Made by a program: the position numbers and the translations under genes
Notes under the pieces: generated by a model
What the model saw: the letters and a program-made list of their open reading frames with translations, nothing else
What the model was told of the DNA's origin: nothing
Database searches by the model: none
Virus record (IMG/VR): IMGVR_UViG_3300023184_009074
Coordinates: 19,445 to 83,444 of that record
DNA: 64,000 nucleotides
Direction: 5' to 3' (one strand)
Origin: a virus
Shown here: positions 1 to 63,438 of the stretch, in pieces
How positions within the stretch are numbered: position 1 is the first letter of the stretch
Layout of the letters: the number at the start of each line of letters is the position of its first letter

Positions 1-555
1 TATCTTTACTACTTCTGTGAAAAACATAATTTTTGGATGTTTGTTTCTTAATACTTGTGAAGTTTTAATTACAAGTTTTAAGAAATCTTCATTTGAATAT
101 CCTTCTTTGCAGTACTTAATATTTTTTTCATCTAGCTTTATAAGTTGATCGTAAATATATTGTGCTATTTTTTCTTCATCATTTACACCAGTTAAATGTT
201 TAAAATCATTTACCAATGGATAGCATTTAATTAAAATTGGTGCTGGATGACCTTTTAAATCTTTTATATCTCTTCTCAATAATATTTTAAAAGATCCAAG
301 TGGAGACACAGATATTATGAATTTACCATAGCTATCTCCAAATTCTAAAACACTTGATTTTGATCTATATGCTTTTTTATTATTTAATGGACCTAATCTT
401 TGTAAATTGTCTAAAAGAAGATTAGAGTCTAAGTGTTGAATTGGATTTTGATCGTAAACTTCATCTTCTTTTGAAGATTTTTTATTAATTTCTCCAAAAC
501 CATATAAATCTTCTGGAGTTTTATTAAACCATGTTTTAAATTCAAGAAGCATCAT
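1..555 (-). CDS. partial hypothetical protein with CTS-like N-terminus (runs off window start)
   Basis: Not in ORF track. ATG at 555, open to position 1: MMLLEFKTWFNKTPEDLYGFGEINK... Confidence 0.8.
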   Translation of the reverse strand, partial: MMLLEFKTWFNKTPEDLYGFGEINKKSSKEDEVYDQNPIQHLDSNLLLDNLQRLGPLNNKKAYRSKSSVLEFGDSYGKFIISVSPLGSFKILLRRDIKDLKGHPAPILIKCYPLVNDFKHLTGVNDEEKIAQYIYDQLIKLDEKNIKYCKEGYSNEDFLKLVIKTSQVLRNKHPKIMFFTEVVKI

Positions 556-9377: not shown

Positions 9378-11621
9378 ATGTCTCTGAAATCATTATCTGA
9401 CTATACTTTTGCAAGTCGTTATGCACGATACGATAAAAATAAAAAAAGAAGAGAAACTTGGCATGAAGCAATTGAGCGTGTCAAAGGCATGCATCTTACA
9501 AAATATCCAATGGCATCAGATGATATTAATTGGGCATTTGAACATGTTCATAATAAAGTTGCACTTGGTAGTCAAAGAGCTTTGCAATTTGGCGGAGATC
9601 CAATTTTAAAGCGTAATGCAAAAATTTATAATTGTATTAGTGCCTATTGTGATAGGCCTAGATTTTTTCAGGAATGTACTTGGCTTTTACTTAATGGTTG
9701 TGGAACTGGGTTTTCTGTTCAGCGACATCATGTTGATAAATTACCAGATTTTCACATTACTAAATCAAGTGATTTGTCAGAAGAAAAAATTTACAAAATT
9801 GATGATAGTATAGAAGGATGGTCAGATGCTCTTGGGGCTTTAATTGCGAGTTATATTCCTCATTCTGAGTTTTCTGATTTTTACGGCAAAAAAGTAACTT
9901 TTGATTATTCTATTATTAGGCCAAAAGGTTCATCTTTATCATATGGTGTAGGTAAAGCACCAGGTCATGAACCACTTGAAAAGGCATTGGAAAAAATTCG
10001 TGATTTACTTAGTAAATCTGTCGATGCTGGTAATAAAAAATTAAGAACAATTGATGCATATGACATAGTAATGCATGCCTCTGATGCTGTACTTAGCGGG
10101 GGTGTCCGCAGAAGTGCCACTTTAGCCATGTTTAGTGTTGATGATGAATTAATGTTTAATGCTAAAATTGGCAATTGGTATTATGAAAATCCACAAAGAG
10201 CAAGGTCGAACAATAGTGCATTACTATTAAAAAATAATACAGGAAGAGAAGATTATCATCGTTTATTTGAATCTACTAGGCAATTTGGAGAACCAGGTAT
10301 TATTTGGAGTCACAGCACTGAACAATTATTCAATCCTTGCGTGGAAATTGGACTTTATGGTTATGATGAGCAAGGCAATTCTGGATGGCAAGCTTGCAAT
10401 CTTTCAACTATAAATGGTGCAAAATTACAAACTAAAGAAAATTTTGCTTTGGCTGCGAAAGTTGCTTCTATTATTGGAACTTTGCAAGCAGGCTACACTG
10501 ACTTTGATTATCTTGGTGAAATTAGCGAATCTATTATAAGAAGAGAAGCCCTTCTTGGTGTTAGTATGACTGGTATTATGGATTATCCAAACATTACCTT
10601 GGATAAAAATAATCTTCGTGAAATGGCGGGTATAGTTCTTCAGACTAATGAAGATATTGCAAATAAAATTGGAATTAATATTGCAGCAAGAACAACTTGT
10701 GTAAAACCAGAAGGAACAGCAAGTTGTTTGCTTGGTACTTCTAGTGGAATTCACCCTGCACACGCTAGAAGATATATTCGTAGAGTTCAAAGTAATGCTG
10801 CAGAAACACCAATTCAACATTTTAAACTTTATAACCCTACTGCTATTGAAACATCGTTATGGAGTGCAAATGGAACGGATGAAGTAATTAGTTTTTTAAT
10901 TGAAATGCCAGAACATGTAATAACAAAAGATAGTATTTCTGCTGTTCAGCTTCTTGAAACTGTTAAGTTGGTTCAGGAAAACTGGGTTGAAACTGGTAAA
11001 AGGCCAGAAAAATGTGTGCATCCTTGGATGTCTCATAATGTTAGTAATACAATTAATGTTAAAGATAGCGAATGGAAAGATGTAGAAGATTTTATTTATG
11101 ACAATCGTGAAAGCTTTGCTGGAATTTCTTTATTGCCAGCTACTGGTGATCTTGATTATCCACAAGCACCATTTTCTAAAATCCTTACAGTTGAAGAGAT
11201 AGTAGAAAAATATGGTAAGGGTTGTATTTTTGCTTCTGGATTAATTGTTGATGCTCTTCATGCTTTTCATAATAATTTATGGAGAGCTTGTGATGCAGCT
11301 TTAGGTGTTTTTGAAGTTCAAGAGCCTAAAGCACCAGAAAAACTAAACGATGAAATAATGCAAAAATTACAATTAGAGTGGGTTCATTTTAATTTACAAA
11401 AAGATTGGGTTAGAAGAGCCAAACAATTTTCAGAAAGACATTTAAAAGGTAATGTTAAAGAACTTACTTATCTTTTAAAAGATATCAACAATAATAAACT
11501 ATGGGAAGATTTAAACAGAGTGTACATTAATGTTAATTGGGATGAAATGTACGAGGAAGATGATACAACTAAATTGGTAGAAAATGTTGCTTGTGCTGGT
11601 GGAGCTTGTAGTACTTTTTAA
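9378..11621 (+). CDS. nrdJ: class II (adenosylcobalamin-dependent) ribonucleotide reductase
   Basis: YNC, GGVRRSA, NPCVEI, CNL, TTCVKPEGT, C-terminal CAGGAC; no beta subunit adjacent. Confidence 0.88.
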   Translation: MSLKSLSDYTFASRYARYDKNKKRRETWHEAIERVKGMHLTKYPMASDDINWAFEHVHNKVALGSQRALQFGGDPILKRNAKIYNCISAYCDRPRFFQECTWLLLNGCGTGFSVQRHHVDKLPDFHITKSSDLSEEKIYKIDDSIEGWSDALGALIASYIPHSEFSDFYGKKVTFDYSIIRPKGSSLSYGVGKAPGHEPLEKALEKIRDLLSKSVDAGNKKLRTIDAYDIVMHASDAVLSGGVRRSATLAMFSVDDELMFNAKIGNWYYENPQRARSNNSALLLKNNTGREDYHRLFESTRQFGEPGIIWSHSTEQLFNPCVEIGLYGYDEQGNSGWQACNLSTINGAKLQTKENFALAAKVASIIGTLQAGYTDFDYLGEISESIIRREALLGVSMTGIMDYPNITLDKNNLREMAGIVLQTNEDIANKIGINIAARTTCVKPEGTASCLLGTSSGIHPAHARRYIRRVQSNAAETPIQHFKLYNPTAIETSLWSANGTDEVISFLIEMPEHVITKDSISAVQLLETVKLVQENWVETGKRPEKCVHPWMSHNVSNTINVKDSEWKDVEDFIYDNRESFAGISLLPATGDLDYPQAPFSKILTVEEIVEKYGKGCIFASGLIVDALHAFHNNLWRACDAALGVFEVQEPKAPEKLNDEIMQKLQLEWVHFNLQKDWVRRAKQFSERHLKGNVKELTYLLKDINNNKLWEDLNRVYINVNWDEMYEEDDTTKLVENVACAGGACSTF

Positions 11622-12957: not shown

Positions 12958-13166
12958 ATGGATTTTGTTTTTTTGGAAATCTATCGAAGAAATTATTTTG
13001 GGAAATTCAAGTTCTTTCTAGAATAAGGAAATTTAAAGATGGCATAACATTTATAAAAATAAATTTAAATTATGATAATTATGAAGGCGATCATAATCCT
13101 TGTTTTACATTTGAACTTACAGTGTTTAATGTTTACAATCATTTTATTATTTTTAGTAAAAATTAA
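12954..13166 (+). CDS. hypothetical protein
   Basis: 70 aa, AAAGGAG SD, coupled to the sigma gene. Confidence 0.6.
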   Translation: MNGFCFFGNLSKKLFWEIQVLSRIRKFKDGITFIKINLNYDNYEGDHNPCFTFELTVFNVYNHFIIFSKN

Positions 13167-13175
13167 GGAATTGTA

Positions 13176-13610
13176 ATGAGCACTAAATCTTCTTTGTATT
13201 ATTCAAATGAAATGCATTTATATAAAGAATTCACTGAAGATAATTCTATATTTTTAAAAATTAAAAAAATTAATTTAGAATTAAAAATGGAATTTAAATT
13301 AATAGATTTTTTAAAAATTGTTAGCACTATTGATTTTAATTCATTGATATTGCAGACTAATTTGTCTGACATTGAAATAAAAAAATATTGTATTAAGCGA
13401 GTCAAAGAAAGAATCAACGAACAAAATCCTATTATGGGAATTTACGCATATATGATCTTTGGGGATAAAAACATGTCAGAAGATGAACAAGTGCAATTAG
13501 CATTTGAATATTATTGCAATAAAAGAGATGAACTTAAAAAAATATATGATGAGCTAAACAAGTCTAAGTTTTCAAAAAATTTTTTTGGATTGGAAGACAT
13601 CATTAATTGA
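13176..13610 (+). CDS. hypothetical protein
   Basis: 144 aa, AAGGA SD. Confidence 0.65.
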   Translation: MSTKSSLYYSNEMHLYKEFTEDNSIFLKIKKINLELKMEFKLIDFLKIVSTIDFNSLILQTNLSDIEIKKYCIKRVKERINEQNPIMGIYAYMIFGDKNMSEDEQVQLAFEYYCNKRDELKKIYDELNKSKFSKNFFGLEDIIN

Positions 13611-14348
13611 CTATATGCTTGATTCTGTAAGCCATTTTTTAAAAGAAAAATTCTCACTTGTGAATCTTTGCTGCCAATCCTGTGTCCTAGAAGGTTGTGG
13701 AATATACATGGATGCTTTTGTAGTTGGTGCAGTAACAGTCTTTAAAATTTGACCTTCTTCTAATTCTCCAAGAGTATAACTTCTAGATTGATTTGTTTTG
13801 TAAGAAAAAACTTCAATTTCTTGTTCTTTCAATTCGCTTTCATCTAGAATATCCATCACATCCATATCTTGTGCTATGTCATATGCTGCGTTGACAATTT
13901 TTCTAGCTGTTTCTTGATTAAATTCCCATACTTCAAAATTATTTTGTCTAATAATAATATATCCTAAATATTTACATCCATATTTTCTAGAATCTCCATG
14001 TAATGCTTGCATTGCTTCTGTTAATTTTGGATTAGAAACTAATTTATAATTAATATCTTTTATGCCATCGTAAAGACTATAAACATTATCTGGGTCATAC
14101 TCTTCTTGACGAATATCTCTCTCAACTTTCATTTTGTTTACTTCTAATTCTTGAATAAGTTCTTCTGATATTTTTGATTTTTCTGATTTTTCTATTAAGT
14201 CTTCTGCAATGTTAACTAGTTCTTCTGCATATGTTCCGCAAATTGCTTGCATAATATGTGCTTCATGACCCATATCACTGACATCACCATCAGCACCTAT
14301 TAAATAACTGCCATCATAAATATATTCGCCTCTTAAAAAGTCAATCAT
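13611..14348 (-). CDS. hypothetical protein, paralog of the central domain of 14917..16365, with a C-terminal CTS-like motif
   Basis: Shared EELVNIAE, KLTEAMQAL, RKYGCK.LG.IIIR, FEVWE.NQ.TA, SYKTN; ends SENFSFKKWLTESSI. Confidence 0.8.
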   Translation of the reverse strand: MIDFLRGEYIYDGSYLIGADGDVSDMGHEAHIMQAICGTYAEELVNIAEDLIEKSEKSKISEELIQELEVNKMKVERDIRQEEYDPDNVYSLYDGIKDINYKLVSNPKLTEAMQALHGDSRKYGCKYLGYIIIRQNNFEVWEFNQETARKIVNAAYDIAQDMDVMDILDESELKEQEIEVFSYKTNQSRSYTLGELEEGQILKTVTAPTTKASMYIPQPSRTQDWQQRFTSENFSFKKWLTESSI

Positions 14349-14350
14349 TA

Positions 14351-14920
14351 TTAATCCTTATTTAAAGTACTTATTACAATAGGTTGTATATCTAAAAGTT
14401 CAGTATCGTTTTTAAAAATTCTTGGAAATCTTTTTGCTATTACAGGATTGAAGTTAAATGGTTTTACTTTTACATGTCTATCTTCGTTTATTCCAAGTGC
14501 ATACAATTTAGCCATTGTTTTCCCAGCAGTAGGATCTAGATCATCTACAAGAATTGATTTTTTGCTTTTAGGTAATTTGTTTTCTTCTGGGTCAATAAAT
14601 TCATAATCTTCTATTCCAAAAATATTATTTTCATCTATTGGGATGCCAAGAGCTTTTATTACTTTTTTCTGAAATACACTTCCTCCAGCAGTAATAATAC
14701 AAACTTTGGCAATTGCTTTTAAATTATTTACAAAATCAATTGCATGTGGCCTTAGAAAACTAGCATAAGAATTGGTAATCAACACACCACTAAGAGCTTT
14801 AATTTCTTCTGGATTTTTAAAAGGTGGCACTTTATTAGTACTTACTAAAGTTTCATCTAAGTCTAAGAATATGATTGGATTTTCTTCTTTATTTTCAATC
14901 CATGTTTTAAAATTTATCAT
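14351..14920 (-). CDS. NIF/FCP1-type HAD phosphatase with CTS-like N-terminus
   Basis: FLDLDETLV (DxDxT), LRPH..DF, ILVDD; starts MINFKTWIENKE. Confidence 0.8.
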   Translation of the reverse strand: MINFKTWIENKEENPIIFLDLDETLVSTNKVPPFKNPEEIKALSGVLITNSYASFLRPHAIDFVNNLKAIAKVCIITAGGSVFQKKVIKALGIPIDENNIFGIEDYEFIDPEENKLPKSKKSILVDDLDPTAGKTMAKLYALGINEDRHVKVKPFNFNPVIAKRFPRIFKNDTELLDIQPIVISTLNKD

Positions 14921-16365
14921 TTATGTATTTTCTTTGTGTCTGTAGAAAATGTTCCTTTGTTTTTAATTGATTTTAATTGTTTTGGATCAAAAACTATGGC
15001 ATTAAATGTTCCATCTTTATCTTTTAAAATAACGCCATCGTATCCATCTCTAAGCAATTCATCTATACCTTTTTTATCATATTCATCCCAGCCAGCTGGA
15101 TTTTGAATAGATGCATAGAGTTCAAAAACGGCACCGCTAACACCAGCACCAGTTTCATTTTTATCAGCAGCATTTTTGTCTGATGTTACCCAAATTATCC
15201 CGCCCATAGCAGATTTCTTAGGGTCAAATCCAAATTTATTTATTTTTTCTGCTGCTTCTTTGCTTGTTTGATGATAAACCACAATTGGATTGCCTTCTGA
15301 ATCTATTACTTTTGAATTTTTAAACCAATTTTTAAAATCAGGATTGTCAATTATGGAGTTTTCTAACCATATTTTAAAAGAAAAACTTTCGCTTGTGTAT
15401 CGCAATTGGTGTCTTTGTGTAGTTGAAAGTCCTTCTGGAGTAGAAGCCTGTGGAATGAAATGATTTGATTTACCTTGACTTATTGTAGGTGTTACATTTA
15501 ATTTTTTATCTCTTAATTGCTCAATAGTATATTCACTGCCTTTATTGGTTTTATATGAAGTAATTCCTATAGTTTGCTCATCTTCTCTGCTTCTGTCTTC
15601 TCTGTTTTCTTCCATAATTTTTTCTGCTGCATCTACAATCTTATTTGCAGTATCTTGATTGAGTTCCCACACTTCAAAGAAAGGCCCTCTAATAATAATA
15701 AATCCTAAAGATTTACATCCATATTTTCTGACATCTCCATGTGATAATGCTTGCATGGCTTCTGTTAGTTTTTGATCAGAAACTAATTGCGGATTAATAT
15801 CTTTAATAGCATTATAAAGGGTGCCAATATTAGTAATTTCTTTTTCTCCAATATTATCATCTTCAATATAATCTGGAAGATTTTTAATTTTATATTTATA
15901 TCTCTTTAATTCCTCTAATTTTTCTTCTAATTCTTCATCTATTTCTTCTGGTTTTTTTGATTCAATTTGTTTAATTAATTTTTCTGCAATATTTACTAAT
16001 TCTTCTCTATGATTTAAAAAAATTGCTGCTTGTATCGTTTCTTCATGAGTTTTTACATCTGCTTCTGTTAATTTTCCGTGATCATAAATCCATTCACCTT
16101 TTAAAAGATCTACTTCTTCCTTGTCTTCAAATGGTGGCTCAATTATTTCAAGTTGTTCTTTCCACCAATTTAATTCTGCTTCAACATTATTTACTTTAGT
16201 TTGTTCTAAAAGAGATTTGATCCATATCATAGATTGTTCAATTTTAAATTTTTCTATTTCTTCCCATCCCAACCCATCTAAATTATTTATTATGTTGTGA
16301 AATGCTATAATAAAATCTTTTGGTATTTCTTTATTTATAAATTTGATAACTGCGTCTTTGTCCAT
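14917..16365 (-). CDS. multidomain protein: unknown domain plus C-terminal ADP-ribosyltransferase-like (ART-PolyVal-like) domain
   Basis: FKNWFKNSKVIDSEGNPIVVYHQT...FDP...IQNP...GYDGVIL...VFDPKQLKS..NKGTF. Confidence 0.7.
   Translation of the reverse strand: MDKDAVIKFINKEIPKDFIIAFHNIINNLDGLGWEEIEKFKIEQSMIWIKSLLEQTKVNNVEAELNWWKEQLEIIEPPFEDKEEVDLLKGEWIYDHGKLTEADVKTHEETIQAAIFLNHREELVNIAEKLIKQIESKKPEEIDEELEEKLEELKRYKYKIKNLPDYIEDDNIGEKEITNIGTLYNAIKDINPQLVSDQKLTEAMQALSHGDVRKYGCKSLGFIIIRGPFFEVWELNQDTANKIVDAAEKIMEENREDRSREDEQTIGITSYKTNKGSEYTIEQLRDKKLNVTPTISQGKSNHFIPQASTPEGLSTTQRHQLRYTSESFSFKIWLENSIIDNPDFKNWFKNSKVIDSEGNPIVVYHQTSKEAAEKINKFGFDPKKSAMGGIIWVTSDKNAADKNETGAGVSGAVFELYASIQNPAGWDEYDKKGIDELLRDGYDGVILKDKDGTFNAIVFDPKQLKSIKNKGTFSTDTKKIHK
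15359..15378. repeat. 20-nt exact direct repeat, copy 1 (encodes FKIWLEN on minus strand)
   Basis: ttttctaaccatattttaaa, identical to 16400..16419. Confidence 0.9.
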
Positions 16366-16374
16366 ATTATTTTC

Positions 16375-16425
16375 TTATATTTTTCTGGAATAGTTTCTAT
16401 TTTCTAACCATATTTTAAAGTTCAT
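16375..16425 (-). other. 16-codon mini-ORF MNFKIWLENRNYSRKI*, in frame with the downstream 482-aa ORF
   Basis: ATG at 16425 is exactly 60 nt upstream of ATG 16365; single TAA at 16377-16375; AATATATA-tttt-ATG upstream. Confidence 0.7.
16400..16419. repeat. 20-nt exact direct repeat, copy 2
   Basis: ttttctaaccatattttaaa, identical to 15359..15378. Confidence 0.9.
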
Positions 16426-16470
16426 AAAATATATATTGATTTTTTTTCATTATTAGATTATTTTTATAAT

Positions 16471-16650
16471 ATGGATAAAATAAAAAAAGAAGAAAAAGTT
16501 TGTTATAATTGCGAATATCTTCTTGGACAAAGTGATATTTCTTTTGGTCTTAGATGTAAACACCCAGAAAACCAAAAAGAAGAAACATTGCCTATTGTTC
16601 CAAGTCCAACGCATAATTGTAAGCATTTTGAAAATAAGCTTAGAAGGTAA
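16471..16650 (+). CDS. unannotated 59-aa Cys4 protein, paralog of the next gene
   Basis: MDKIKKEEKVCYNCEYLLGQSDISFGLRCKHPENQKEETLPIVPSPTHNCKHFENKLRR; aligns with 16654..16845. Confidence 0.8.
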   Translation: MDKIKKEEKVCYNCEYLLGQSDISFGLRCKHPENQKEETLPIVPSPTHNCKHFENKLRR

Positions 16651-16653
16651 TAG

Positions 16654-16845
16654 ATGTTTAATTTAGAAATAAAGCCAGAAGACAAAGTTTGTTATAATTG
16701 CAAATTTTTATTTTGGAGTGTTGGAATAGGCATGGGAATAAGATGTAACAATGAAAATAATAGAAAAGGTCAAGAGTTACCGCCTATAACACATAGTAAA
16801 AGCACTTGTGATTTATTTCTGCAGAAGCGAAGGCAATTAAAATGA
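16654..16845 (+). CDS. small Cys4 (putative Zn-binding) protein
   Basis: KVCYNC...GIRC...C; GAAGG SD-like sequence. Confidence 0.75.
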   Translation: MFNLEIKPEDKVCYNCKFLFWSVGIGMGIRCNNENNRKGQELPPITHSKSTCDLFLQKRRQLK

Positions 16846-17960
16846 CATGGTTTACTTCTATTTTGACTTTTGGTGGTATTTTTGTTGGCATATGGGCAAC
16901 CATTAAATATGTTATTTTGTTTGAATTAAGAATTGATAATAATACTTTTAGAACTTTATATGAATTATCTTTAAAAGAAACTAAGTTTGTATTAGAAGAA
17001 GAATTCTTTTCTGAGAAAAGACAGCCTGTTATTTATAGGGCTTTTTGTTTTTTTAAAAATCAACCTTGGTTTTACTTAACGCATGGAGAAAGGCTTCTTC
17101 AAGCAGGATTCAATGGAAAAGATCAAATATCTTATGTAATTTGTGCAAGGTGGAACTTTTACAAGCTTAAAATATTTTTACAATCTAATCTTCCGTGTTT
17201 ACAATTAGAATACTTTGGTATTCCAATTAGAGTTGCAAATCCTTGGTTTACAGATAAAATTGGATCAATTAAAGAGGCTAATTATCCAATTCAAGCTGAA
17301 TCTTTTTGGAAGGATCTAGATGAAGATATTCAGCTTGTTGTTGATGGTAATATTTCAAAAGCTAGTGCAATTTTTTATGGTGAACCTGGCAATGGCAAAA
17401 GCTCTTTAGTTAAGTACTTAGCAGTTAAATATAAGCTACCAATAGTAATTTTGACTTTTGTACCAGAATATACAAACATGGAAATCATGTATATGTTTTC
17501 GCAAATAAGCGAAAACTGCATAGTTTTACTTGAAGATTTTGATAATTATTTCGATAAAAGAAAATGTATTATTGGAGAAAGTAATAGCGGAAGTAACAAT
17601 GTTGGAATTAAATTTACATTTGACTCAATATTAAATTGTTTAGATGGCGTTTATAACAATTATAAAAAAACAGTATTCATCATGACTGTTAATGATATTG
17701 AAAAGGTTGATGTTGCTTTGAAAAATAGGCCAAGCAGATTCAAGCATTTGATGAACTTTGATAATCCTGATTTTGAATTAAGATTTAAAATAATACCATA
17801 TTGGGCAGCAGAAACTTCTGGATTAAACTTAGATCAAGTTTTCAGGATGAAAGAATTTAAAGAGAAAGGACTTTCTTTAGGCAGTTCTTTGTTGAAAATT
17901 AAAATAGAAAAACAAATAGAAGATGCAGAAAATAAAGATTTAAATATGCCTTATATTTAA
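16842..17960 (+). CDS. membrane-anchored AAA+ ATPase (BCS1-like)
   Basis: N-terminal hydrophobic helix, GEPGNGKS, LLEDFD, ILNCLDG, MTVN, ALKNRPSRF. Confidence 0.8.
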   Translation: MTWFTSILTFGGIFVGIWATIKYVILFELRIDNNTFRTLYELSLKETKFVLEEEFFSEKRQPVIYRAFCFFKNQPWFYLTHGERLLQAGFNGKDQISYVICARWNFYKLKIFLQSNLPCLQLEYFGIPIRVANPWFTDKIGSIKEANYPIQAESFWKDLDEDIQLVVDGNISKASAIFYGEPGNGKSSLVKYLAVKYKLPIVILTFVPEYTNMEIMYMFSQISENCIVLLEDFDNYFDKRKCIIGESNSGSNNVGIKFTFDSILNCLDGVYNNYKKTVFIMTVNDIEKVDVALKNRPSRFKHLMNFDNPDFELRFKIIPYWAAETSGLNLDQVFRMKEFKEKGLSLGSSLLKIKIEKQIEDAENKDLNMPYI

Positions 17961-20651: not shown

Positions 20652-21533
20652 TTATTTTCCTAAAATATAATCAATAAAATTTAAACCAAGTTGAAATGTT
20701 GGTTTATCAAGGAATTTATAATCTCTTTTGATTTTTTCTAAAACTTGAGAATCTCTAATTGTTGATTCTAAGTCTTGGCTAACAACATTTTCTGTAATAA
20801 TCTTAAATTCTGTTTTTGCAATTGTATCTCTGTATTTTCTTAAAGGGAAGAAATGCTTATTTACTTTTATTTGATTTGGTTTTTTGCCTAAAAATTCTTC
20901 TAATTCATTTTCAAGCAAAGCAATGTGAAGGAAGGCTTTATTGCATTCATTATAAAGATGACCACCATGTCTTGAAGTCCAAGGATGCATTCTTACATAA
21001 AGTTTTCCTTGAGGAGACAATACTTCTTTGATTTTATTGAAAACATCAACTTCTGATTCATTTTCTAAATGATCAAAAACATCATACATTAAAATAATAT
21101 CATAAGGGCCATTTTTTTCAACTACCGACCAATCTGTAGTAAACGATTCTGGATTTTTTTCTTTTAAGGAAGGACAGAAGGTATCTTTTATGTCATATCC
21201 TAAAGAATAAGATGCTTTGTTATCATCTGCTGCAATAGCAATGTGTCCTTCTCCACATCCAAAATCAAGAAATTTTTTATTTTTAATATTCTCTTCAATG
21301 TAAAGATCAAGAACACTATTTGCTCTTTCGAATTTATCTTCTTCAGAAGCTGCATCACAAATCATTGATGGATCAACTGCTTCAGGCCAAAGAGGATTTC
21401 TTAAATCTTCCAGCGTCAAATAATATGCTGCTGAATTTTTTTGATTTGGAAGGAGAAGATTTACTTTATTGTTAATTTCTTCAATTTTATCTTGAAGAAT
21501 CTTTATTTCTTTGATTAAATTTTCATTGTTCAT
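20652..21533 (-). CDS. class I SAM-dependent methyltransferase
   Basis: FLDFGCGEG, YDIILMYDVFDHL, LSPQG; true start may be slightly internal. Confidence 0.85.
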   Translation of the reverse strand: MNNENLIKEIKILQDKIEEINNKVNLLLPNQKNSAAYYLTLEDLRNPLWPEAVDPSMICDAASEEDKFERANSVLDLYIEENIKNKKFLDFGCGEGHIAIAADDNKASYSLGYDIKDTFCPSLKEKNPESFTTDWSVVEKNGPYDIILMYDVFDHLENESEVDVFNKIKEVLSPQGKLYVRMHPWTSRHGGHLYNECNKAFLHIALLENELEEFLGKKPNQIKVNKHFFPLRKYRDTIAKTEFKIITENVVSQDLESTIRDSQVLEKIKRDYKFLDKPTFQLGLNFIDYILGK

Positions 21534-21585
21534 AGTATTCTATAATAATTATCATTTTTATTTTTTAAAAAGAAAATTGGGAAAA

Positions 21586-23211
21586 ATGGCAAAATATTTT
21601 GTTGTTGTAGGCGGTGTCTTTAGTGGTATTGGAAAAGGAATATCTATTGCATCCATTGGATATTTGCTTTCTTTGAGAAGTTTAAAGGTTATTCCAATAA
21701 AATTTGATCCATATTTAAATACAAATGCTGGGATTCTTGCTCCAAGAGAACATGGAGAAGTATTTCTTTGCAACGATGGCAGCGAAACAGACTTAGATTT
21801 AGGTCATTATGAAAGAATAATTGGTTGCCAAGTTTCTAAAAACAACATTTGTACCAGTGGAACTATTTATAAAGAAATTATAGAAGAACAAGAAGAAGGC
21901 AAGTATCTTGGTGAGACTGTTCAAATAATTCCTCATGTAACAAATAAAATCATTGAAAAATTAAAAAACCTAGGAAAAGACAACGATGTTGTGTTGGTTG
22001 AAATTGGTGGTACGGTAGGAGATATTGAAAGTGGCCCTTTCATGGAAGCAATTAGGCAATTTAAGCGAAAAAACCCAGACGATGTAATTGTTGCTTTGTG
22101 TGCTCCTATTTTATGGGTTCCTACAATAAAAGAATTTAAAACCAAGCCTTTGCAGCAAGCTGTGCAAACAATGCAATCTTGTGGCTTGCAACCTGAAGTT
22201 TTGTTGTGCAGAGCAGAGAAAGAAATTCCTTCTAAGATACTTGATAAAATTAGTGCTTTGACAAATGTTCCAAAAGATGCTGTATTTGAAGCACTAGATG
22301 TTAAATCAATTTATCAAGTTCCAATTGAATTTTATAATAGGCATGTAGATGATTTGATTATTGATAAATTTCACTTGCCTAGAAATGGGTTAAGAATTCA
22401 CAAATATAAAGATTTGGTTGAAAAGTATGTTAATTGCGATGATTTAACTTCTGTTAAAATAGGAATTTTAGGAAAATATGATAATTGTGATGAAGCTTAT
22501 TTAAGTTTAAAAGAAGCAGTCTTCCATGCTGGTGTAGCTGCTAATGTTAAAGTTGAAATTGAATGGATATCAGCACAAGAAATTGAACAGATTAAGGATA
22601 ATAAAGCTTTTTGTAAAATATTTGATTCTATTGATGGATTAATTGTGCCTGGTGGTTTTGATTCAAAAGGAATTGAGGGAAAAATAAAAGGCATTTCTTG
22701 CGTAAGAAATAAAAAAATTCCTTTTTTGGGAATATGCTTGGGATTGCAATGTGCTGTAATTGAATTTGCAAGACATGTAGGTCTTGAAACTGCTAATTCA
22801 CAAGAATTTGACCCAGATACAAAATACCCTGTTGTACATTTTATAGCTGGACAAGAAAAACTAAAGAAAAAATCTTCCAACATGAGACTTGGTGCTTTTG
22901 ATTGTGATATAACAAAAGATTCATTGGCATTTGATCTTTATAAAAAGAAAACAATATCTGAAAGGCATAGACACAGATACGAAGTTAATGATTTATTAAT
23001 TGATGAAAAGTTTTACAAAGAAGGCTTTAGAATTACAGGAAGATATTTAGAATCAAATTTAGTAGAGATAATTGAAATAGACAAAGAAATTCATCCCTTT
23101 TTTATTGCAACTCAAGCACATCCTGAATTCAAAAGTAGATTAACATCGCCATCTCCTTTATTTTTAGGTTTAATAGAAGCTGCTAAAAAGAAAAAAGAAG
23201 TTAATATATAG
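21586..23211 (+). CDS. pyrG: CTP synthase
   Basis: GGVFSGIGKG, DPYLN, HGEVF, DLDLGHYER, EIGGTVGDIES, KTKP.Q, PGGF, GICLG, ERHRHRYE, HPEF; likely start MAKYF at 21586. Confidence 0.97.
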   Translation: MAKYFVVVGGVFSGIGKGISIASIGYLLSLRSLKVIPIKFDPYLNTNAGILAPREHGEVFLCNDGSETDLDLGHYERIIGCQVSKNNICTSGTIYKEIIEEQEEGKYLGETVQIIPHVTNKIIEKLKNLGKDNDVVLVEIGGTVGDIESGPFMEAIRQFKRKNPDDVIVALCAPILWVPTIKEFKTKPLQQAVQTMQSCGLQPEVLLCRAEKEIPSKILDKISALTNVPKDAVFEALDVKSIYQVPIEFYNRHVDDLIIDKFHLPRNGLRIHKYKDLVEKYVNCDDLTSVKIGILGKYDNCDEAYLSLKEAVFHAGVAANVKVEIEWISAQEIEQIKDNKAFCKIFDSIDGLIVPGGFDSKGIEGKIKGISCVRNKKIPFLGICLGLQCAVIEFARHVGLETANSQEFDPDTKYPVVHFIAGQEKLKKKSSNMRLGAFDCDITKDSLAFDLYKKKTISERHRHRYEVNDLLIDEKFYKEGFRITGRYLESNLVEIIEIDKEIHPFFIATQAHPEFKSRLTSPSPLFLGLIEAAKKKKEVNI

Positions 23212-43409: not shown

Positions 43410-43505
43410 TTTTTTATTAATTCATTTATTATTAGTTCATAGTTACACATTTTTAATTGTCACATAATATATATTTTAATCTTATATTTTTTGGAAATTA
43501 AATTT

Positions 43506-44591
43506 ATGAACAATAGAAATTTAAAGAACATACCTTGCAATTTACTTCCTTATATAAAAGAAAATGTTATCTCTTTTCAGAGCGAAGAGCAAAAATTAGG
43601 CTGGCAAATAACTAATTTCAATATACCAGACATATGGAAATTTTCCAAAGGTGAGAATGTTAAAGTGGCAGTTTTGGATACTGGAATTGATTTAGAGCAT
43701 AGTGATTTAAAAGAAAATATAGAAAATGGTGCTAATTTTGTAGAAAAAGATTTGCCTCCTCAAGATTTTAATTCTCATGGAACTCATGTTTCAGGCATTA
43801 TTGCAGCAAAAAACAATGATTTTGGAATAGTTGGAATAGCACCTAAAGCTAAAATAATACCAATCAAAGTATTAAATAATTATGGTGCTGGAGATATGGA
43901 AGCTGTATTAAACGGTATCAATTATGCTGTAAGTGTAAAAGCAGATATTATTTGCATGTCTTTGGGAACAAGAGATCCAATCGAAGAAATTAGAGTTGCA
44001 ATAGAAAATGCAGCAAAGAATAATACTGTTTGTTTTGTTGCTGCTGGAAATGCAGGTAATACAGAGCAGCTTTTATATCCTGCTGCATATACAGAAGCTA
44101 TATCAATTGGTGCCGTAGATGAGAATTGCTTAAGAGCAAGTTTTAGTTGTACAGGGCCAAACTTAGATTTTGTAGCACCTGGCGTTAAAATTTACAGTAG
44201 TGTTCCAAAAAATACTTATGCTTACATGAGTGGATCTAGCATGGCATGCCCATTTGCTGTTGGTGTAGCAGCGTTAATTTTATCTTCTAAAAGAAATATT
44301 GATCCAAATGCTACAATGAATGCAGATGATTACAGAGAGGTTTTCAAGGAAAATTCTAAGACTGTGAAAAATTTAGAAGAATTATTGGCAAAGCAAGGAA
44401 CTTCTAGATTTTGGCAAGGCATGGGTATTATAAATCCAGAAAGTTTTTCAGAATGGGTAGAGCTTAAGAACATTGAAACAATCAGAGAGAAAATTACAAA
44501 TTTAATAGATTTGATTAATATGATTAAAAATAAATCAAATTTAAGTAGAATAATTAAAGAAAAAGATTTACTTGTTTCAAAATTAAATTAA
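43506..44591 (+). CDS. subtilisin-like S8 serine protease
   Basis: VLDTG, HGTHVSG, AAGN, SGSSMACP; intact D-H-S triad; likely ATG at 43506. Confidence 0.93.
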   Translation: MNNRNLKNIPCNLLPYIKENVISFQSEEQKLGWQITNFNIPDIWKFSKGENVKVAVLDTGIDLEHSDLKENIENGANFVEKDLPPQDFNSHGTHVSGIIAAKNNDFGIVGIAPKAKIIPIKVLNNYGAGDMEAVLNGINYAVSVKADIICMSLGTRDPIEEIRVAIENAAKNNTVCFVAAGNAGNTEQLLYPAAYTEAISIGAVDENCLRASFSCTGPNLDFVAPGVKIYSSVPKNTYAYMSGSSMACPFAVGVAALILSSKRNIDPNATMNADDYREVFKENSKTVKNLEELLAKQGTSRFWQGMGIINPESFSEWVELKNIETIREKITNLIDLINMIKNKSNLSRIIKEKDLLVSKLN

Positions 44592-61005: not shown

Positions 61006-63438
61006 ATGTTTATATTAGAATTTAAACAATGGATAGAAGAAGAGTTATTAATTGAAGCACTTTTATCTAAAGATCAATCAAAGCTTTTTTCGATTATATT
61101 AAATCACATAAAACTTAATCCATTAGTAAACATTGTTGGAGTTGGTAAGAAAAATGTAAATCAATTAGTAAGTTCTATAACAGGTTCACTATTAGACAAA
61201 TTTTCTAAAACCAGTATTAATGATGATGTTTTTTTGAAAGCTTTTTTAGCTGTAGTATTAAGAAGAGCATTTCAATCAAAGGATTTCAGTTCTATAATAG
61301 ATGATAATTTTTTCACTTTATCTAAACAAGATAAAGAATTACAGATAGATGCAGCTATAGGATACATTTCAATGTTCTTAGAAGATTTAGATGAAAAATC
61401 ATATATTTTTGGCGAAATATTACATAATAATAATGGAGATTTATCAAAATCAATAAATGATTTTTTAACAAATCCTAGAGGAATACATAGCCATTTGGGA
61501 TTGGAAAAAAAGCCATTGTTTAAAAAAGCATTAGAAAAACCATCGCAAGAAAAACTTATCATGAGAAGTTTAGATCAAGATTCTAATACTGATTCTAAGC
61601 AGTATATACCTACAGAAGATGAATTGCTTTCAAAAAGAGATGCTTCTGATAAGCCAAAAAAAGAATTTGATGATATTTCTAGAATAGAACAACAAGAATT
61701 TCAAAAGAAACTACTTAGTGTTACTCCTGCTAAGGCTAAAGAAAATTTAAATATTAATCTAAAAAGATCTTTGGATGAAAATAAAGATGCTATTATTAAT
61801 CCTGATAATTTAGACTTTTTTGCCAAAAATCCAAAAAGTAAAAAGCCAGAAATTAACGATACTAATAATTATTTAAAAATAAAAGCCTTATATGATATTA
61901 GTACAAAATTTGAAAAAGGCATTTCTGAATTAGAAGGCCATTCTGGGATACCTTCTTATGAAGGAAGATCATATTCTACATTACCAACTAGAAAAGATGT
62001 TCTTGATTCTGATTCTTATTTTTCAAAATTAAAAGATGATCAATGGATAAACTTAATTAGCAAATACATATTATCGCATTATAATGCAGGTAAAGATCCA
62101 AAAATTGCAATAAGCTTTTTTACTAATTTATATGGTGCTCCAAGTGACATGTGGAAAAAAGTTATAGATACAGCAGTTGAAAAATCTGTGAATGTAAAAA
62201 AAGATTTATTAGAAAAAGATTTTCCTCTTACTCAAGATGATTTTGAATTTGAAGATGAAAAAGCTAAAAAAGATAAAGAAAGATTTAAAAGAACTTGGAT
62301 GAATATGTCTGGGCGTTTAGCTGTAAGTGCAAAATCTGACTTACATGAGTTCTTACCAGATTCTATAAATCCTTATGATGATAATGGAAATCCAAAAGAA
62401 GAAGGAAAGTTTGATAAAGATGGATACGACAGAGTAAGTAAAATATTAGATGATTTTTATTATAATAAATTTTATGGAAATACTTCTGTTAAATCTGGCA
62501 GTAAAATTGATGACAAAGAAAAAGAAGTAGCAAACAAAAGTCAAAATTTCCAAACACTAGTAAAATTATATAGAATTTTATTGGGGTTATCTGCAATTGA
62601 AGTAGCACAAGTAGATGCAAAAACAATACCAATATGTAAACAACTGCAAATATGGTTGGATTTTTCATTTAGAGATCCAGGTTCTAATGTTTCTGTTGAA
62701 GAATTAAATAAAATTAAAGACATTAAGAAGATTAAAGAATTATTAGATAGCAGTGAGAATATAATTAAAAATATATTCAAAAAACCTTTGAATGCTATTT
62801 GTAATAATGATAAATTTGATGACTTTGAAATTGAAGATGATGATTGGAAATCAAGCCATGAAGAATATTTAGCTGCATTAAACATTAAAGATTTACCAGC
62901 AGGGTATTCTATAGGAAGTCGATTTGGATTTAAAGATTTTTTGAAATTAAAAAATTCAAAAAATAAAGAAGATATTGAAAAATATAAATATTTGATTAGC
63001 AAGGGAAAAGAATCTTTAAAAAATGAGCCATCCTTGGCTAAGAAGGCAGAAGAAAAAGAATATCTAGATATTGCTGAAAAAATTGTTGCTCTTAGGCAAG
63101 GAGTTGGCGATCCATATGCTATCGCAGAAAAGCTTAAAACAGGTTTATCTGTAGGATCTCCTTTATGGCACGATTTACAAATTGTTAAGAGTAAATTCAC
63201 GCCTCCTGATGTGTATACGCCTAGATCTAAAGAAGAAGAAGAGTTTGGCATTACTAGATCTTCTGAAATTCCACAACTACCAGCATGGAAACCAAAAACC
63301 CCTGAAGTTTCTTCGCCTGATCCAAAAGAAAAAGAACAGATGATAGCAGCAGCTAAGCAAAGAGCACAAGCAGCAGCGGACCAAAGAAGAGCTTATTACG
63401 CAAGTAATTTGAATAAAGACACAGGGAGGGTAAAATGA
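61006..63438 (+). CDS. large hypothetical protein, CTS-like N-terminus
   Basis: AAGGAG SD then MFILEFKQWIEEELLIE; about 810 aa. Confidence 0.78.
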   Translation: MFILEFKQWIEEELLIEALLSKDQSKLFSIILNHIKLNPLVNIVGVGKKNVNQLVSSITGSLLDKFSKTSINDDVFLKAFLAVVLRRAFQSKDFSSIIDDNFFTLSKQDKELQIDAAIGYISMFLEDLDEKSYIFGEILHNNNGDLSKSINDFLTNPRGIHSHLGLEKKPLFKKALEKPSQEKLIMRSLDQDSNTDSKQYIPTEDELLSKRDASDKPKKEFDDISRIEQQEFQKKLLSVTPAKAKENLNINLKRSLDENKDAIINPDNLDFFAKNPKSKKPEINDTNNYLKIKALYDISTKFEKGISELEGHSGIPSYEGRSYSTLPTRKDVLDSDSYFSKLKDDQWINLISKYILSHYNAGKDPKIAISFFTNLYGAPSDMWKKVIDTAVEKSVNVKKDLLEKDFPLTQDDFEFEDEKAKKDKERFKRTWMNMSGRLAVSAKSDLHEFLPDSINPYDDNGNPKEEGKFDKDGYDRVSKILDDFYYNKFYGNTSVKSGSKIDDKEKEVANKSQNFQTLVKLYRILLGLSAIEVAQVDAKTIPICKQLQIWLDFSFRDPGSNVSVEELNKIKDIKKIKELLDSSENIIKNIFKKPLNAICNNDKFDDFEIEDDDWKSSHEEYLAALNIKDLPAGYSIGSRFGFKDFLKLKNSKNKEDIEKYKYLISKGKESLKNEPSLAKKAEEKEYLDIAEKIVALRQGVGDPYAIAEKLKTGLSVGSPLWHDLQIVKSKFTPPDVYTPRSKEEEEFGITRSSEIPQLPAWKPKTPEVSSPDPKEKEQMIAAAKQRAQAAADQRRAYYASNLNKDTGRVK

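What the first reader, a model, noticed from the sequence alone, without database searches (positions are those of the whole stretch)
13611..16425. Modular effector cassette in which the capsid tag acts as a module junction (tag-X-tag-ART / tag-phosphatase / X'-tag)
Seen: a translationally coupled minus-strand operon (ATGA overlap at 14917-14920; TAAtaATG at 14353-14346), inverted relative to its neighbours. It holds four copies of the F-K-x-W-[LI] tag: at the operon start (MNFKIWLEN), inside the 482-aa ORF just before the ART-like domain (SFKIWLENS), at the phosphatase start (NFKTWIEN) and at the C-terminus of the last gene (SFKKWLTES). Domain X is duplicated, with clear nucleotide similarity between about 13920-14070 and 15660-15820. 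Known: T-even internal-protein loci are polymorphic and encode injected anti-defence proteins, and T4 Alt is a packaged ADP-ribosyltransferase. Inference: a shufflable cassette of packaged host-takeover or anti-defence enzymes, where internal tags double as prohead-protease cleavage sites (polyprotein). This is the best candidate for an undescribed system in the window.
Basis: partly seen in the sequence, partly recalled or inferred. Interest (0 to 1): 0.85.

Follow-up and report, generated by a model that had tools for sequence, protein, structure and literature searches.

The report
Tag-joined effector cassette in huge phage
Three genes of an uncultured huge phage are assembled from interchangeable enzyme modules joined by one short peptide tag; related phages swap modules exactly at that tag, which most likely (not shown) works like phage T4's signal for loading proteins into the virus head.

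Summary
The minus-strand block 13611-16425 holds three genes: a 482-aa protein (N-extension + domain X + tag + ART-PolyVal ADP-ribosyltransferase), a tag-NIF/HAD phosphatase, and a 245-aa X paralogue (46% identity) that ends in the tag. The fourth tag, at the "operon start", lies in a 16-codon mini-ORF cut off from the X gene by an in-frame TAA.

The motif F-K-x-W-[LI] is about 15-fold enriched on the contig and over 100-fold enriched at N-termini.

New here:
- Homology between related contigs breaks at the tags.
- Three modules occur both free with an N-terminal tag and fused behind X-tag.
- Domain X is an unnamed family of at least 127 clusters with no known fold. Members carry one tag, at either end, or a different leader (MNWYK).
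- Relatives hold arrays of up to 13 consecutive MNFKxWL genes.
- In the models the tag lies in a low-confidence stretch outside the confidently folded domains.

The tag as recombination joint and selected portable peptide is well supported. Capsid loading and cleavage rest only on analogy with the T4 capsid-targeting sequence; no head protease or virion data were available.

The scan noted the same cassette on another genome and similar leader tags elsewhere.

Verdict: new variant of a known kind.

The parts
16375..16425 (-). 16-codon mini-ORF MNFKIWLENRNYSRKI* carrying the tag. It is in frame with the X-ART gene but separated from it by a TAA.
   Evidence: The mini-ORF and its stop are conserved in L001/L044 and L002/L015. 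P0001 and P0002 have the tag fused in frame, and P0003 reads Leu at the stop position.
14917..16365 (-). 482-aa protein: N-extension + domain X + linker + tag + ART-PolyVal domain
16114..16365 (-). Helical N-extension (residues 1-84), absent from the X paralogue
   Evidence: the alignment starts at residue 85. AF2 block pLDDT is 50-79. No family above a Pfam cut-off.
15490..16113 (-). Domain X, copy 1 (about residues 85-292)
   Evidence: 46% identity to the 245-aa paralogue. AF2 pLDDT is mostly above 90.
15382..15489 (-). Low-confidence linker ending in the conserved TSE motif
   Evidence: pLDDT 44-52 for the blocks covering residues 291-350. WRGTSE/YTSE is conserved across the family.
15355..15381 (-). 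Internal tag SFKIWLENS at the X/ART junction
   Evidence: Homology with L002 ends at 15364, the last base of FKIWL. A 20-nt stretch is identical to the mini-ORF tag.
14956..15303 (-). ART-PolyVal ADP-ribosyltransferase domain (PF18760, residues 355-470). Just upstream (around 15310-15339) lies the family's own tag-like DFKNWFKNSKVI segment.
   Evidence: The tag-like segment is seen in all ART-PolyVal homologues examined.
14351..14920 (-). Tag + NIF/HAD-type phosphatase (189 aa). The tag FKTWI lies at 14897-14911.
   Evidence: The gene is absent from the relative L001, which is about 95% identical in DNA. Orthologues down to 61% identity all keep the tag.
13611..14348 (-). Domain X paralogue (245 aa) ending in the tag (FKKWL at 13629-13643) plus 5 residues. 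Relatives carry a further 137-aa module after this tag.
   Evidence: AF2 mean pLDDT is 90.6; residues 201-230 average 56-72 per block, and the tag helix 236-243 about 70.

Best explanation
The block encodes modular effector proteins of a huge, uncultured contractile-tailed phage. The modules are joined or headed by a portable peptide of 8-10 residues, consensus [M]-N/S-F-K-x-W-L/I-(0-3 residues)-E/N.

Shown:
1. The peptide is selected as a peptide. It is kept on diverged orthologues and on dozens of unrelated proteins, and it has synonymous variation.
2. Structure models place it in low-confidence stretches outside the confidently folded domains.
3. Its coding sequence is where related genomes recombine. 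This creates fusions (X-tag-ART, X-tag-other modules), fissions and module losses.

Inferred:
- The peptide is an address label like the T4 capsid-targeting sequence. It would load the ADP-ribosyltransferase, the phosphatase, the X proteins and many other enzymes into the prohead, for injection with the DNA.
- A Glu a few residues after the Trp would mark where a head protease trims the tag.
- In fused proteins that cut would separate the modules.
- In effect this would be an 'unbundled' form of the polyvalent proteins of phages.
For: Enrichment and position.
- 10 motif hits against 0.68 expected on the contig, and 4 at N-termini against 0.03 expected.

Selection on the peptide.
- Twelve phosphatase homologues were read. 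Eleven, at 61-91% identity, keep F, K and W with the x residue varying; one at 36% has FKKFL.
- Tags use several synonymous codons: TTT/TTC, AAA/AAG, TTA/CTT/CTA.
- All 34 X-family representatives with a strict tag carry exactly one, at the N-terminus or after the C-terminal TSE motif.
- A further 11 X members start with MNW[YF][KR] instead. An earlier scan note lists M-N-W-Y-K-x-A-Q as a leader in other huge phages.

Structure.
- In the X' model the last 45 residues average pLDDT 56-72 per block, with a short tag helix.
- In the 482-aa model the blocks covering residues 291-350 average pLDDT 44-52, between two confident domains.

Recombination at the tag.
- Window-to-L002 homology (96%) runs only from 16441 to 15364. 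That is from just upstream of the mini-ORF tag to the last base of the internal tag.
- L001 lacks the phosphatase gene and has an extra module after the X' tag.
- The ART is free with a tag in P0004/P0005 and fused here.
- The 'LLNE-RQG' module is free at L029:8150-8614 and fused in L002.
- The ankyrin module is free in L005 and L035 and fused in P0023 and in a 791-aa L005 protein.
- Tags within one locus share the x residue and exact 20-24-nt stretches.

Breadth.
- A pattern scan found 45 stretches in viral contigs; 30 of 48 matches open ORFs of at least 60 aa.
- Arrays hold up to 13 consecutive tagged genes.

Likeness to the T4 signal.
- In T4, residues 4 and 7 of the capsid-targeting sequence target, and residues 8 and 10 direct processing. 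The ADP-ribosyltransferase Alt loses both an N- and a C-terminal propeptide to gp21 (PMC9026906).
- T4 internal proteins share only the leader (PMC12373910, PMC3012670).
- Here the two aromatics are also three residues apart.
- All 57 tags have a Glu 2-7 residues after the Trp. 36 of 57 have [LI]-x-E, against an 8-12% background.

Cargo types.
- ART, GNAT, 2H/Acb1-like, ParB C-terminal-like, HNH nucleases and a tRNA nucleotidyltransferase. Several of these (ART, 2H, ParB-type, nucleases) are kinds of domain found in polyvalent proteins, which are held to be delivered with the DNA (PMC5512222).
- An ART-PolyVal homologue is fused to the head protein domain MuF (P0011).
Against: - There are no virion data for any tagged protein.
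- No prohead protease, capsid or scaffold gene is on the contig, so no cleavage specificity can be compared.
- Three of the four tags in this cassette are of the WLEN/WIEN subtype without [LI]-x-E.
- The [LI]-x-E count is inflated, because the seed pattern demanded Asn three residues after the Trp.
- None of the tagged proteins matches a PHROG head or packaging family. Homing-type HNH nucleases are odd capsid cargo.
- The tag closely resembles the N-terminal segment native to ART-PolyVal domains in unrelated phages. It could therefore be a spread domain fragment.
- Not all module junctions lie at a canonical tag; P0004 and P0005 diverge after ...KEFKSAVEDTP.
- T4's signal is known mainly at N-termini.
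Confidence: 0.5

Rival explanations
1. The tag is a docking motif for some other hub, not the capsid. The hub could be a host complex such as RNA polymerase, the ribosome or the replisome, or a phage-made compartment or machine. It would bring many enzymes to one place after ordinary expression in the cell.
For: - Cargo is mostly nucleic-acid and protein-modifying enzymes, including HNH nucleases, a tRNA nucleotidyltransferase and 2H enzymes. None has a head-related family.
- The tag is a short amphipathic helix on a flexible tether at either end of a protein, as expected for a short linear motif.
- Different tags (MNWYK against NFKxWL) on the same X family fit a partner that varies between lineages.
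Against: - No candidate partner was identified.
- The spacing of the two aromatics, the following Glu and the leader-only similarity among unrelated proteins match the T4 precedent closely (PMC9026906).
- ART-PolyVal cargo is fused to the head protein domain MuF in another phage.
Confidence: 0.2
2. The tag has no signalling role. It is the N-terminal segment native to the ART-PolyVal domain (F-K-x-W-F-x-x-S-K-V-V-D). It was duplicated next to the ART and then spread to other genes as a by-product of recombination, and it persists as a neutral linker or recombination scar.
For: - Nearly all ART-PolyVal homologues examined, including those of quite different phages, start with this segment just before the Pfam model.
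- In the 482-aa protein the tag and the native segment lie in tandem (SFKIWLENSIID / DFKNWFKNSKVID).
- Tags within a locus are homogenised at the DNA level.
Against: - A neutral scar would not keep F, K and W on phosphatase orthologues that are 61-91% identical elsewhere.
- It would not sit right after the start Met of dozens of unrelated genes.
- It would not obey a one-tag-per-protein rule with N- or C-terminal placement in the X family.
Confidence: 0.1
3. Domain X is the receptor or adaptor for the tag. X proteins would bind tagged enzymes (or each other head-to-tail) and carry them along. Fusion to X would simply make that link covalent.
For: - X and the tag co-occur, and X is the domain most often fused in front of tagged modules.
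- The tag helix at the end of X' has higher confidence (about 70) than the linker before it.
Against: - Most X proteins carry their own single tag, which fits cargo better than receptor.
- Tag arrays exist without an X gene nearby in the stretches fetched (L029, L035).
- X members in other lineages carry a different leader.
Confidence: 0.08
4. The repeated motif is a chance or compositional effect of an AT-rich genome, whose N-termini are rich in Asn, Phe and Lys.
For: - The genome is about 27% G+C.
- Looser versions of the motif listed by first readers ([FY]-x-x-[WFY]-[LIVK]) could partly be compositional.
Against: - The strict motif contains Trp and is 15-fold enriched overall and over 100-fold enriched at N-termini.
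- It recurs in contigs of up to 54% G+C.
- It is conserved on orthologues.
Confidence: 0.02

Closest known systems
Capsid-targeting sequence (CTS) of phage T4 internal proteins IPI-III and Alt, removed by the prohead protease gp21, in polymorphic internal-protein loci of T-even phages
   Same: - A short leader is the only similarity among otherwise unrelated proteins.
- Two aromatic residues lie three apart, followed by an aliphatic residue and a Glu.
- The loci vary between close relatives.
- One cargo is an ADP-ribosyltransferase.
- T4 Alt also loses a C-terminal propeptide (PMC9026906, PMC12373910, PMC3012670, PMC2839356).
   Different: - Here the peptide also lies inside proteins at domain junctions, and at the C-terminus of a whole protein family.
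- Dozens of genes carry it, against a handful in T4.
- Recombination breakpoints fall inside the tag itself. In T-even internal-protein loci, shuffling is linked to associated PeSL-like regulatory elements (PMC2839356).
- The sequence is different.
- Packaging and cleavage are untested, and no gp21-type protease was seen on this fragment.
Polyvalent proteins of phages and conjugative elements (Iyer, Burroughs, Anand, de Souza, Aravind 2017, PMC5512222)
   Same: - The domain repertoire overlaps: ART-PolyVal, ParB-type, 2H and nuclease domains.
- Some X-family members lie inside true polyvalent proteins (P0046, 1447 aa, with GNAT and ART).
- The predicted role is delivery with the DNA at the start of infection.
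   Different: - The proteins here are small, with one or two effector domains.
- No zincin-like metallopeptidase domain was seen that could process them.
- The modules are mostly separate genes, each with its own tag.
Polymorphic toxin systems with a conserved pre-toxin motif (e.g. VENN of CdiA) and MuF-fused phage toxins
   Same: - A short conserved motif marks the border between a constant part and a swappable C-terminal enzyme.
- Its coding sequence offers homology for module replacement.
- An ART-PolyVal homologue is fused to MuF (P0011).
   Different: - No immunity genes, secretion domains or orphan toxin arrays of the CDI type are present.
- The motif here also heads free-standing proteins.
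- What I say about VENN rests on my own knowledge of that literature, not on a test here.
Proteolytic maturation of head and ejection proteins in giant phages phiKZ, 201phi2-1 and SPN3US
   Same: Large phages pack many internal proteins. A gp21-related protease cuts after Glu, sometimes at several sites in one protein (PMC5694885, PMC9026906).
   Different: - Those propeptides are long (over 100 residues) and are not a shared short tag.
- No homology to those proteins was found here.

Membership tests
ART-PolyVal ADP-ribosyltransferase (Pfam PF18760) | Match to the family profile above the curated cut-off | tested here: met
   Residues 355-470 cover model positions 1-136 of 140, at 54.9 bits against a cut-off of 31.2. 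19 homologues were found, most carrying PF18760.
ART-PolyVal ADP-ribosyltransferase (Pfam PF18760) | Intact catalytic residues of the ART fold | not tested
   The conserved VVYH[GQ]T, W(F/V)TS and E-LY stretches are present by eye. No residue-level comparison with a characterised enzyme was made.
NIF/FCP1-like HAD phosphatase (Pfam PF03031) | Profile match above the cut-off, and HAD motif I DxDxT | tested here: met
   37.9 bits against 21.8. DLDETL follows the tag directly.
T4-type capsid-targeting leader system | A short leader shared by otherwise unrelated proteins | tested here: met
   57 tagged proteins have 7% mean column identity; only F, K and W are invariant. Five N-terminal cases lie on this contig.
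T4-type capsid-targeting leader system | Leader ends in the cleavage motif of the phage's own prohead protease | tested here: inconclusive
   A Glu lies 2-7 residues after the Trp in 57 of 57 tags. [LI]-x-E occurs in 36 of 57, against an 8-12% background. No protease or capsid gene is available for comparison.
T4-type capsid-targeting leader system | Tagged proteins are packed into the prohead and the leader is removed | not testable with these tools
   This needs virion proteomics. No cultured relative was found.
Polyvalent proteins (PMC5512222) | Several unrelated effector domains in one polypeptide, drawn from the polyvalent repertoire | tested here: inconclusive
   The 482-aa protein has one recognised effector (ART-PolyVal) plus domain X of unknown function. 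Distant X members lie in 1447-aa and 1950-aa proteins, and the 1447-aa one (P0046) carries GNAT and ART.
Polyvalent proteins (PMC5512222) | Zincin-like metallopeptidase domain for self-processing (frequent, not universal) | tested here: not met
   No peptidase family was found in the three proteins.
ParB/sulfiredoxin-like nuclease (for the module that follows the X' tag in relatives) | Profile or sequence match to ParB-type domains | tested here: inconclusive
   Pfam at E up to 1 and the PDB sequence search gave no ParB match for L001:8213-8620 or L029:8150-8614. One other tagged protein matches PHROG 'ParB C-terminal domain'. The label came from motifs read by eye.

The most novel reading that the evidence does not exclude
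A position-independent address tag of 8-10 residues (F-K-x-W-L...E) loads dozens of enzymes into the capsid of huge phages. It works at the N-terminus, at the C-terminus or between domains. Because every cargo gene shares its coding sequence, it also serves as an in-frame recombination joint, letting the phage assemble and break up polyproteins that the head protease cuts back into single enzymes. Injected effector sets could then be read straight from the sequence, and domain X would be a new, widespread class of packaged protein.
Probability: 0.3. Interest if true: 0.8.

Novelty: new variant of a known kind. Interest (0 to 1): 0.62.

Why it matters
**Reading cargo from sequence.** If the tag is a capsid-loading signal, the injected protein set of a large group of uncultured huge phages can be listed from sequence alone. 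That set includes ADP-ribosyltransferases, phosphatases, acetyltransferases, nucleases and an anti-CBASS-like 2H enzyme.

**How effector sets evolve.** The cassette shows how such sets change quickly. A shared in-frame microhomology of about 25 nt lets modules be fused, split and exchanged without breaking reading frames. This resembles polymorphic toxins and the T-even internal-protein loci, but with the joint inside the protein.

**A new protein family.** Domain X has at least 127 clusters at 50% identity, a confident predicted fold with no known match, and invariant Glu and His residues. It needs a function.

**A possible tool.** A short tag that works at either end of a protein could be used to load foreign proteins into phage heads, as the T4 signal has been.

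Tried and rejected
The long contigs behind P0001, P0003 and P0010 could not be read.
- The 197-kb relative (L001) is not held for whole-record searches.

**Searches with no result**
- Pfam Peptidase_S77 (T4 gp21) and Gp23 on G000 and G001 gave no match. The controls also rang nowhere, so this is uninformative.
- blastn of 13000-17000 and tblastn of X', P0130 and P0040 against 50,697 phage records gave no match.

**Domain X fold**
- Foldseek against PDB and BFVD: nothing at E <= 0.001.
- VIA-align wide: only generic three-helix-bundle matches, Z <= 8.3, over residues 32-118.
- PDB profile search: nothing.
- ESM Atlas: no usable hit.

**Complex prediction**
- X'(1-205) with the tagged phosphatase scored 0.29 against a mark of 0.32. 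The verdict was 'no answer', so it counts neither for nor against binding.

**Other**
- Sigma-70 promoter and terminator scans of the block were not above shuffles.
- The ATAAATA motif found just before many tagged genes in relatives is not in front of this operon.
- Literature search for tag strings (MNFKEWL and similar) found no paper.
- Repoila et al. 1994 could not be read.
- 'ParB-like' for the C-terminal modules of relatives was not confirmed.
Full report
**1. What is there**

The window is the larger part of an 83.4-kb viral contig. It has about 27% G+C, and CheckV rates it 17% complete, so it is a fragment of a very large phage genome.

Genes identified on the window:
- tail sheath, baseplate hub, and SbcCD-like nuclease subunits
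- tail tube proteins and a head-tail adaptor
- tail sheath stabiliser
- two sigma-like factors

The finding's block is a run of three tightly packed minus-strand genes between plus-strand neighbours.

- **Gene 1 (14917-16365, 482 aa).** It has a helical N-extension (residues 1-84) and domain X (about 85-292). A linker follows that ends in YTSES, then the tag SFKIWLENS (about 328-338), then an ART-PolyVal ADP-ribosyltransferase domain (PF18760, residues 355-470, 54.9 bits against a cut-off of 31.2).
- **Gene 2 (14351-14920, 189 aa).** It starts MINFKTWIEN and runs straight into the DLDET motif of a NIF/HAD phosphatase (PF03031).
- **Gene 3 (13611-14348, 245 aa).** It is a paralogue of domain X (46% identity, E 1e-57) and ends ...FTSENFSFKKWLTESSI.

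The fourth tag, however, belongs to a 16-codon mini-ORF (16375-16425). That mini-ORF is in frame with gene 1 but cut off from it by a TAA.

**2. More than chance**

- The strict motif F-[KR]-x-W-[LIFMV] occurs 10 times in 27,009 ORF residues of the contig, against 0.68 expected.
- It occurs 4 times within the first 14 residues of 124 ORFs, against 0.03 expected.
- The two X copies are also alike as DNA: 79% over 195 nt, and 87% over the 31 nt around the tag.

**3. The tag is a junction where genomes recombine**

- **L001** (a 197.5-kb contig, about 95% identical in DNA, 98% in the 482-aa protein) has X-tag-ART followed directly by X'-tag plus a further 137-aa module. It has no phosphatase gene. 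Homology with the window breaks at the end of the ART gene, resumes 26 nt before X', and breaks again near the X' tag.
- **L002** (a 40-kb contig) shares with the window only 16441-15364, at 96%. This stretch runs from just upstream of the mini-ORF tag to the last base of the internal FKIWL. Beyond the tag L002 has a different C-terminal module, and its flanking genes are different, including a tag-GNAT gene and another tagged gene.

Three modules occur in both free and fused states:

| Module | Free, with N-terminal tag | Fused behind a tag |
|---|---|---|
| ART | P0004, P0005 (MNFKIWLEGSMID...) | behind X here, in L001 and in P0001/P0002 |
| 'LLNE-RQG' module | L029:8150-8614 | behind X in L002 |
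| Ankyrin module | L005, L035 | behind X in P0023, and behind another domain in an L005 791-aa protein |

In the fusions, the residues after the Trp are those of the free gene's tag. The crossover therefore lay inside the tag.

Tags in one locus share their variable residue: Ile in both tags of gene 1 here, Gln in three tags in L002. They also share exact stretches of 20-24 nt. In the gene arrays, the first 27 nt are about 80% identical while the next 200 nt are about 30% identical.

**4. The tag is selected as a peptide and is portable**

- Twelve phosphatase homologues were read. Eleven, at 61-91% identity, keep M-(x)-N-F-K-x-W-[LIF]-E-N (or a close variant) with the x residue varying. One at 36% has FKKFL.
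- A scan of viral contigs for a back-translated MNFKxWLxN found 45 stretches, in contigs of 25-54% G+C and up to 373 kb. 30 of 48 matches open ORFs of at least 60 residues.
- The stretches fetched hold 62 distinct N-tagged proteins of 90 residues or more (57 aligned). They include runs of 13 (L029, from the same contig as L001), 7 (L035) and 6 (L026) tagged genes.
- In the alignment of the 57, only F, K and W are invariant.
- Their recognisable domains are GNAT, ankyrin, a treble-clef/HNH nuclease, tRNA nucleotidyltransferase, 2H/Acb1-like, NIF and a ParB C-terminal-like domain. Most have none.

**5. Domain X is a new family**

- phmmer against 1.84 billion representatives gave 127 clusters at E <= 0.001.
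- Members are mostly 200-290 residues, begin (I)RGEYWIxDG...ADGDxGDxNHE and end WRGTSE. A Glu and a His are invariant.
- All 34 representatives with a strict tag have exactly one. It is either N-terminal or a few residues after TSE.
- In about ten the tag is followed by further modules, among them PF17338 GP88.
- Eleven others start MNW[YF][KR]. I checked only that these X members carry it and lack the FKxWL tag.
- The AlphaFold model of X' is confident (mean pLDDT 90.6). The last 45 residues average 56-72 per block and end in a short tag helix.
- No fold match was found beyond generic helical bundles. There was no PDB, Pfam or Atlas match and no homologue in 50,697 phage records.
- In the model of the 482-aa protein, X and ART are confident. 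The blocks covering residues 291-350, which hold the tag, average pLDDT 44-52.

**6. How it most likely works**

*Shown.* The peptide is portable and conserved. Structure models place it in low-confidence stretches outside the confidently folded domains. It heads or joins unrelated modules, and it is the place where related genomes recombine.

*Inferred.* It is an address label of the kind T4 uses.
- In T4, the first 10 residues of IPIII suffice for loading into the prohead.
- Residues 4 and 7 matter for targeting, and residues 8 and 10 for cleavage by gp21.
- The ADP-ribosyltransferase Alt loses propeptides at both ends (PMC9026906).
- T4 internal proteins share nothing but the leader, and their loci are highly variable (PMC12373910, PMC3012670, PMC2839356).

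The tag here has the same layout: two aromatics three residues apart, then an aliphatic residue, then a Glu. All 57 tags have a Glu 2-7 residues after the Trp. 36 have [LI]-x-E against an 8-12% background, although the seed pattern biases this count.

The cargo types overlap with those of polyvalent proteins, which are thought to enter the cell with the DNA (PMC5512222). One ART-PolyVal homologue is fused to the head protein domain MuF, and another to an Acb1 domain.

Frequent switching between fused and free forms among near-identical genomes would be easy to tolerate if the fusions are cut at the tag, or if the modules act independently on a tether.

**7. What weakens this**

- Nothing shows packaging or cleavage.
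- No head protease or capsid gene is on this fragment.
- Three of the four tags in this cassette (WLEN/WIEN) lack [LI]-x-E.
- No tagged protein matches a head family.
- The tag is very like the segment F-K-x-W-F-x-x-S-K-V-V-D that precedes ART-PolyVal domains in unrelated phages. It may have arisen from that segment. In gene 1 the two lie in tandem.
- The N-terminal tag of gene 1 is cut off by a stop here, in L001 and in L002. P0003 reads Leu at that place but starts differently. P0001 and P0002 have it fused. That may reflect the one-tag-per-protein tendency, or simply decay.

**8. Rivals**

- A docking motif for some other host or phage hub
- A spread ART-domain fragment with no signalling role
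- Domain X as the tag's receptor; the complex prediction gave no verdict
- Composition, which contradict

**9. Novelty**

The principle is known from T4: a leader shared by variable injected proteins. This scan has flagged comparable leaders in other uncultured phages, and the same cassette on another genome.

What is new:
- the tag is used inside proteins and at C-termini
- nucleotide-level evidence that it is the recombination joint
- free and fused pairs of the same modules
- the domain X family

No paper with these tag strings was found.

Noticed in passing
window 43491-44591 (+): A phage-encoded subtilisin-like serine protease (Peptidase_S8, E 3e-56; PHROG 'protease' E 3e-83). It could process proteins, but no link to the tag was examined.
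   Followed up: partly
L029 and L035 (upstream of tagged genes); window 3925, 28774(-), 41287(-), 42095(-), 45491(-), 46322(-), 52875(-): The motif ATAAATA lies 4-5 nt (in the arrays) or about 10 nt (on the own contig) before the ATG of many genes. It resembles the T4 late promoter TATAAATA. If it is a promoter, the transcripts would have almost no leader. It is not present before the finding's operon.
   Followed up: partly
window 16842-17960 (+): An AAA ATPase with an N-terminal membrane helix (PF00004, E 1.5e-13) lies next to the cassette, here and in L001 but not in L002.
   Followed up: partly
window 16471-16650 and 16654-16845 (+): Two small tandem paralogous ORFs with a CxxC motif (KVCYNCEY... 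/ KVCYNCKF...) lie between the cassette and the AAA gene. They are conserved in L001.
   Followed up: no
window 13611-14348 (-) and family alignment A1: Domain X has an invariant Glu and His (E8, H28 of the 245-aa protein) and near-invariant G7, Y9, A19, D20, E29 and D119, within GEYW...ADGDxGDxNHE. This looks like a metal or active site in a fold with no known match.
   Followed up: partly
proteins P0075, P0077, P0085, P0103, P0116, P0120, P0130, P0134, P0136, P0145: X-family members from other metagenomic phages start MNW[YF]K... directly before the GEWWI strand. So the same cargo family carries a different leader in other lineages.
   Followed up: partly
protein P0013 (445 aa, from a 569.7-kb contig): An Acb1 (anti-CBASS) domain is fused to an ART-PolyVal domain in one protein. 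P0010 combines GNAT, DUF5661 and ART-PolyVal.
   Followed up: no
window 21511-23211 (+) and 9378-11621 (+): A CTP synthase (PF06418, E 1e-97) is present. A 747-aa protein that reads like a ribonucleotide reductase was identified by eye only.
   Followed up: partly
window 61006-63435 (+) and window 1-555 (-): An 810-aa protein of no known family starts MFILEFKQWIEEE (tag). Another ORF at the window's start has MMLLEFKTWF at a possible internal start.
   Followed up: partly
L008 12157-13696 (-), a contig of 49% G+C: Three consecutive MNFK[LQ]WL genes lie in a quite different phage with higher G+C. One has an HExxH-like motif (TIVHELAHAIQ).
   Followed up: no
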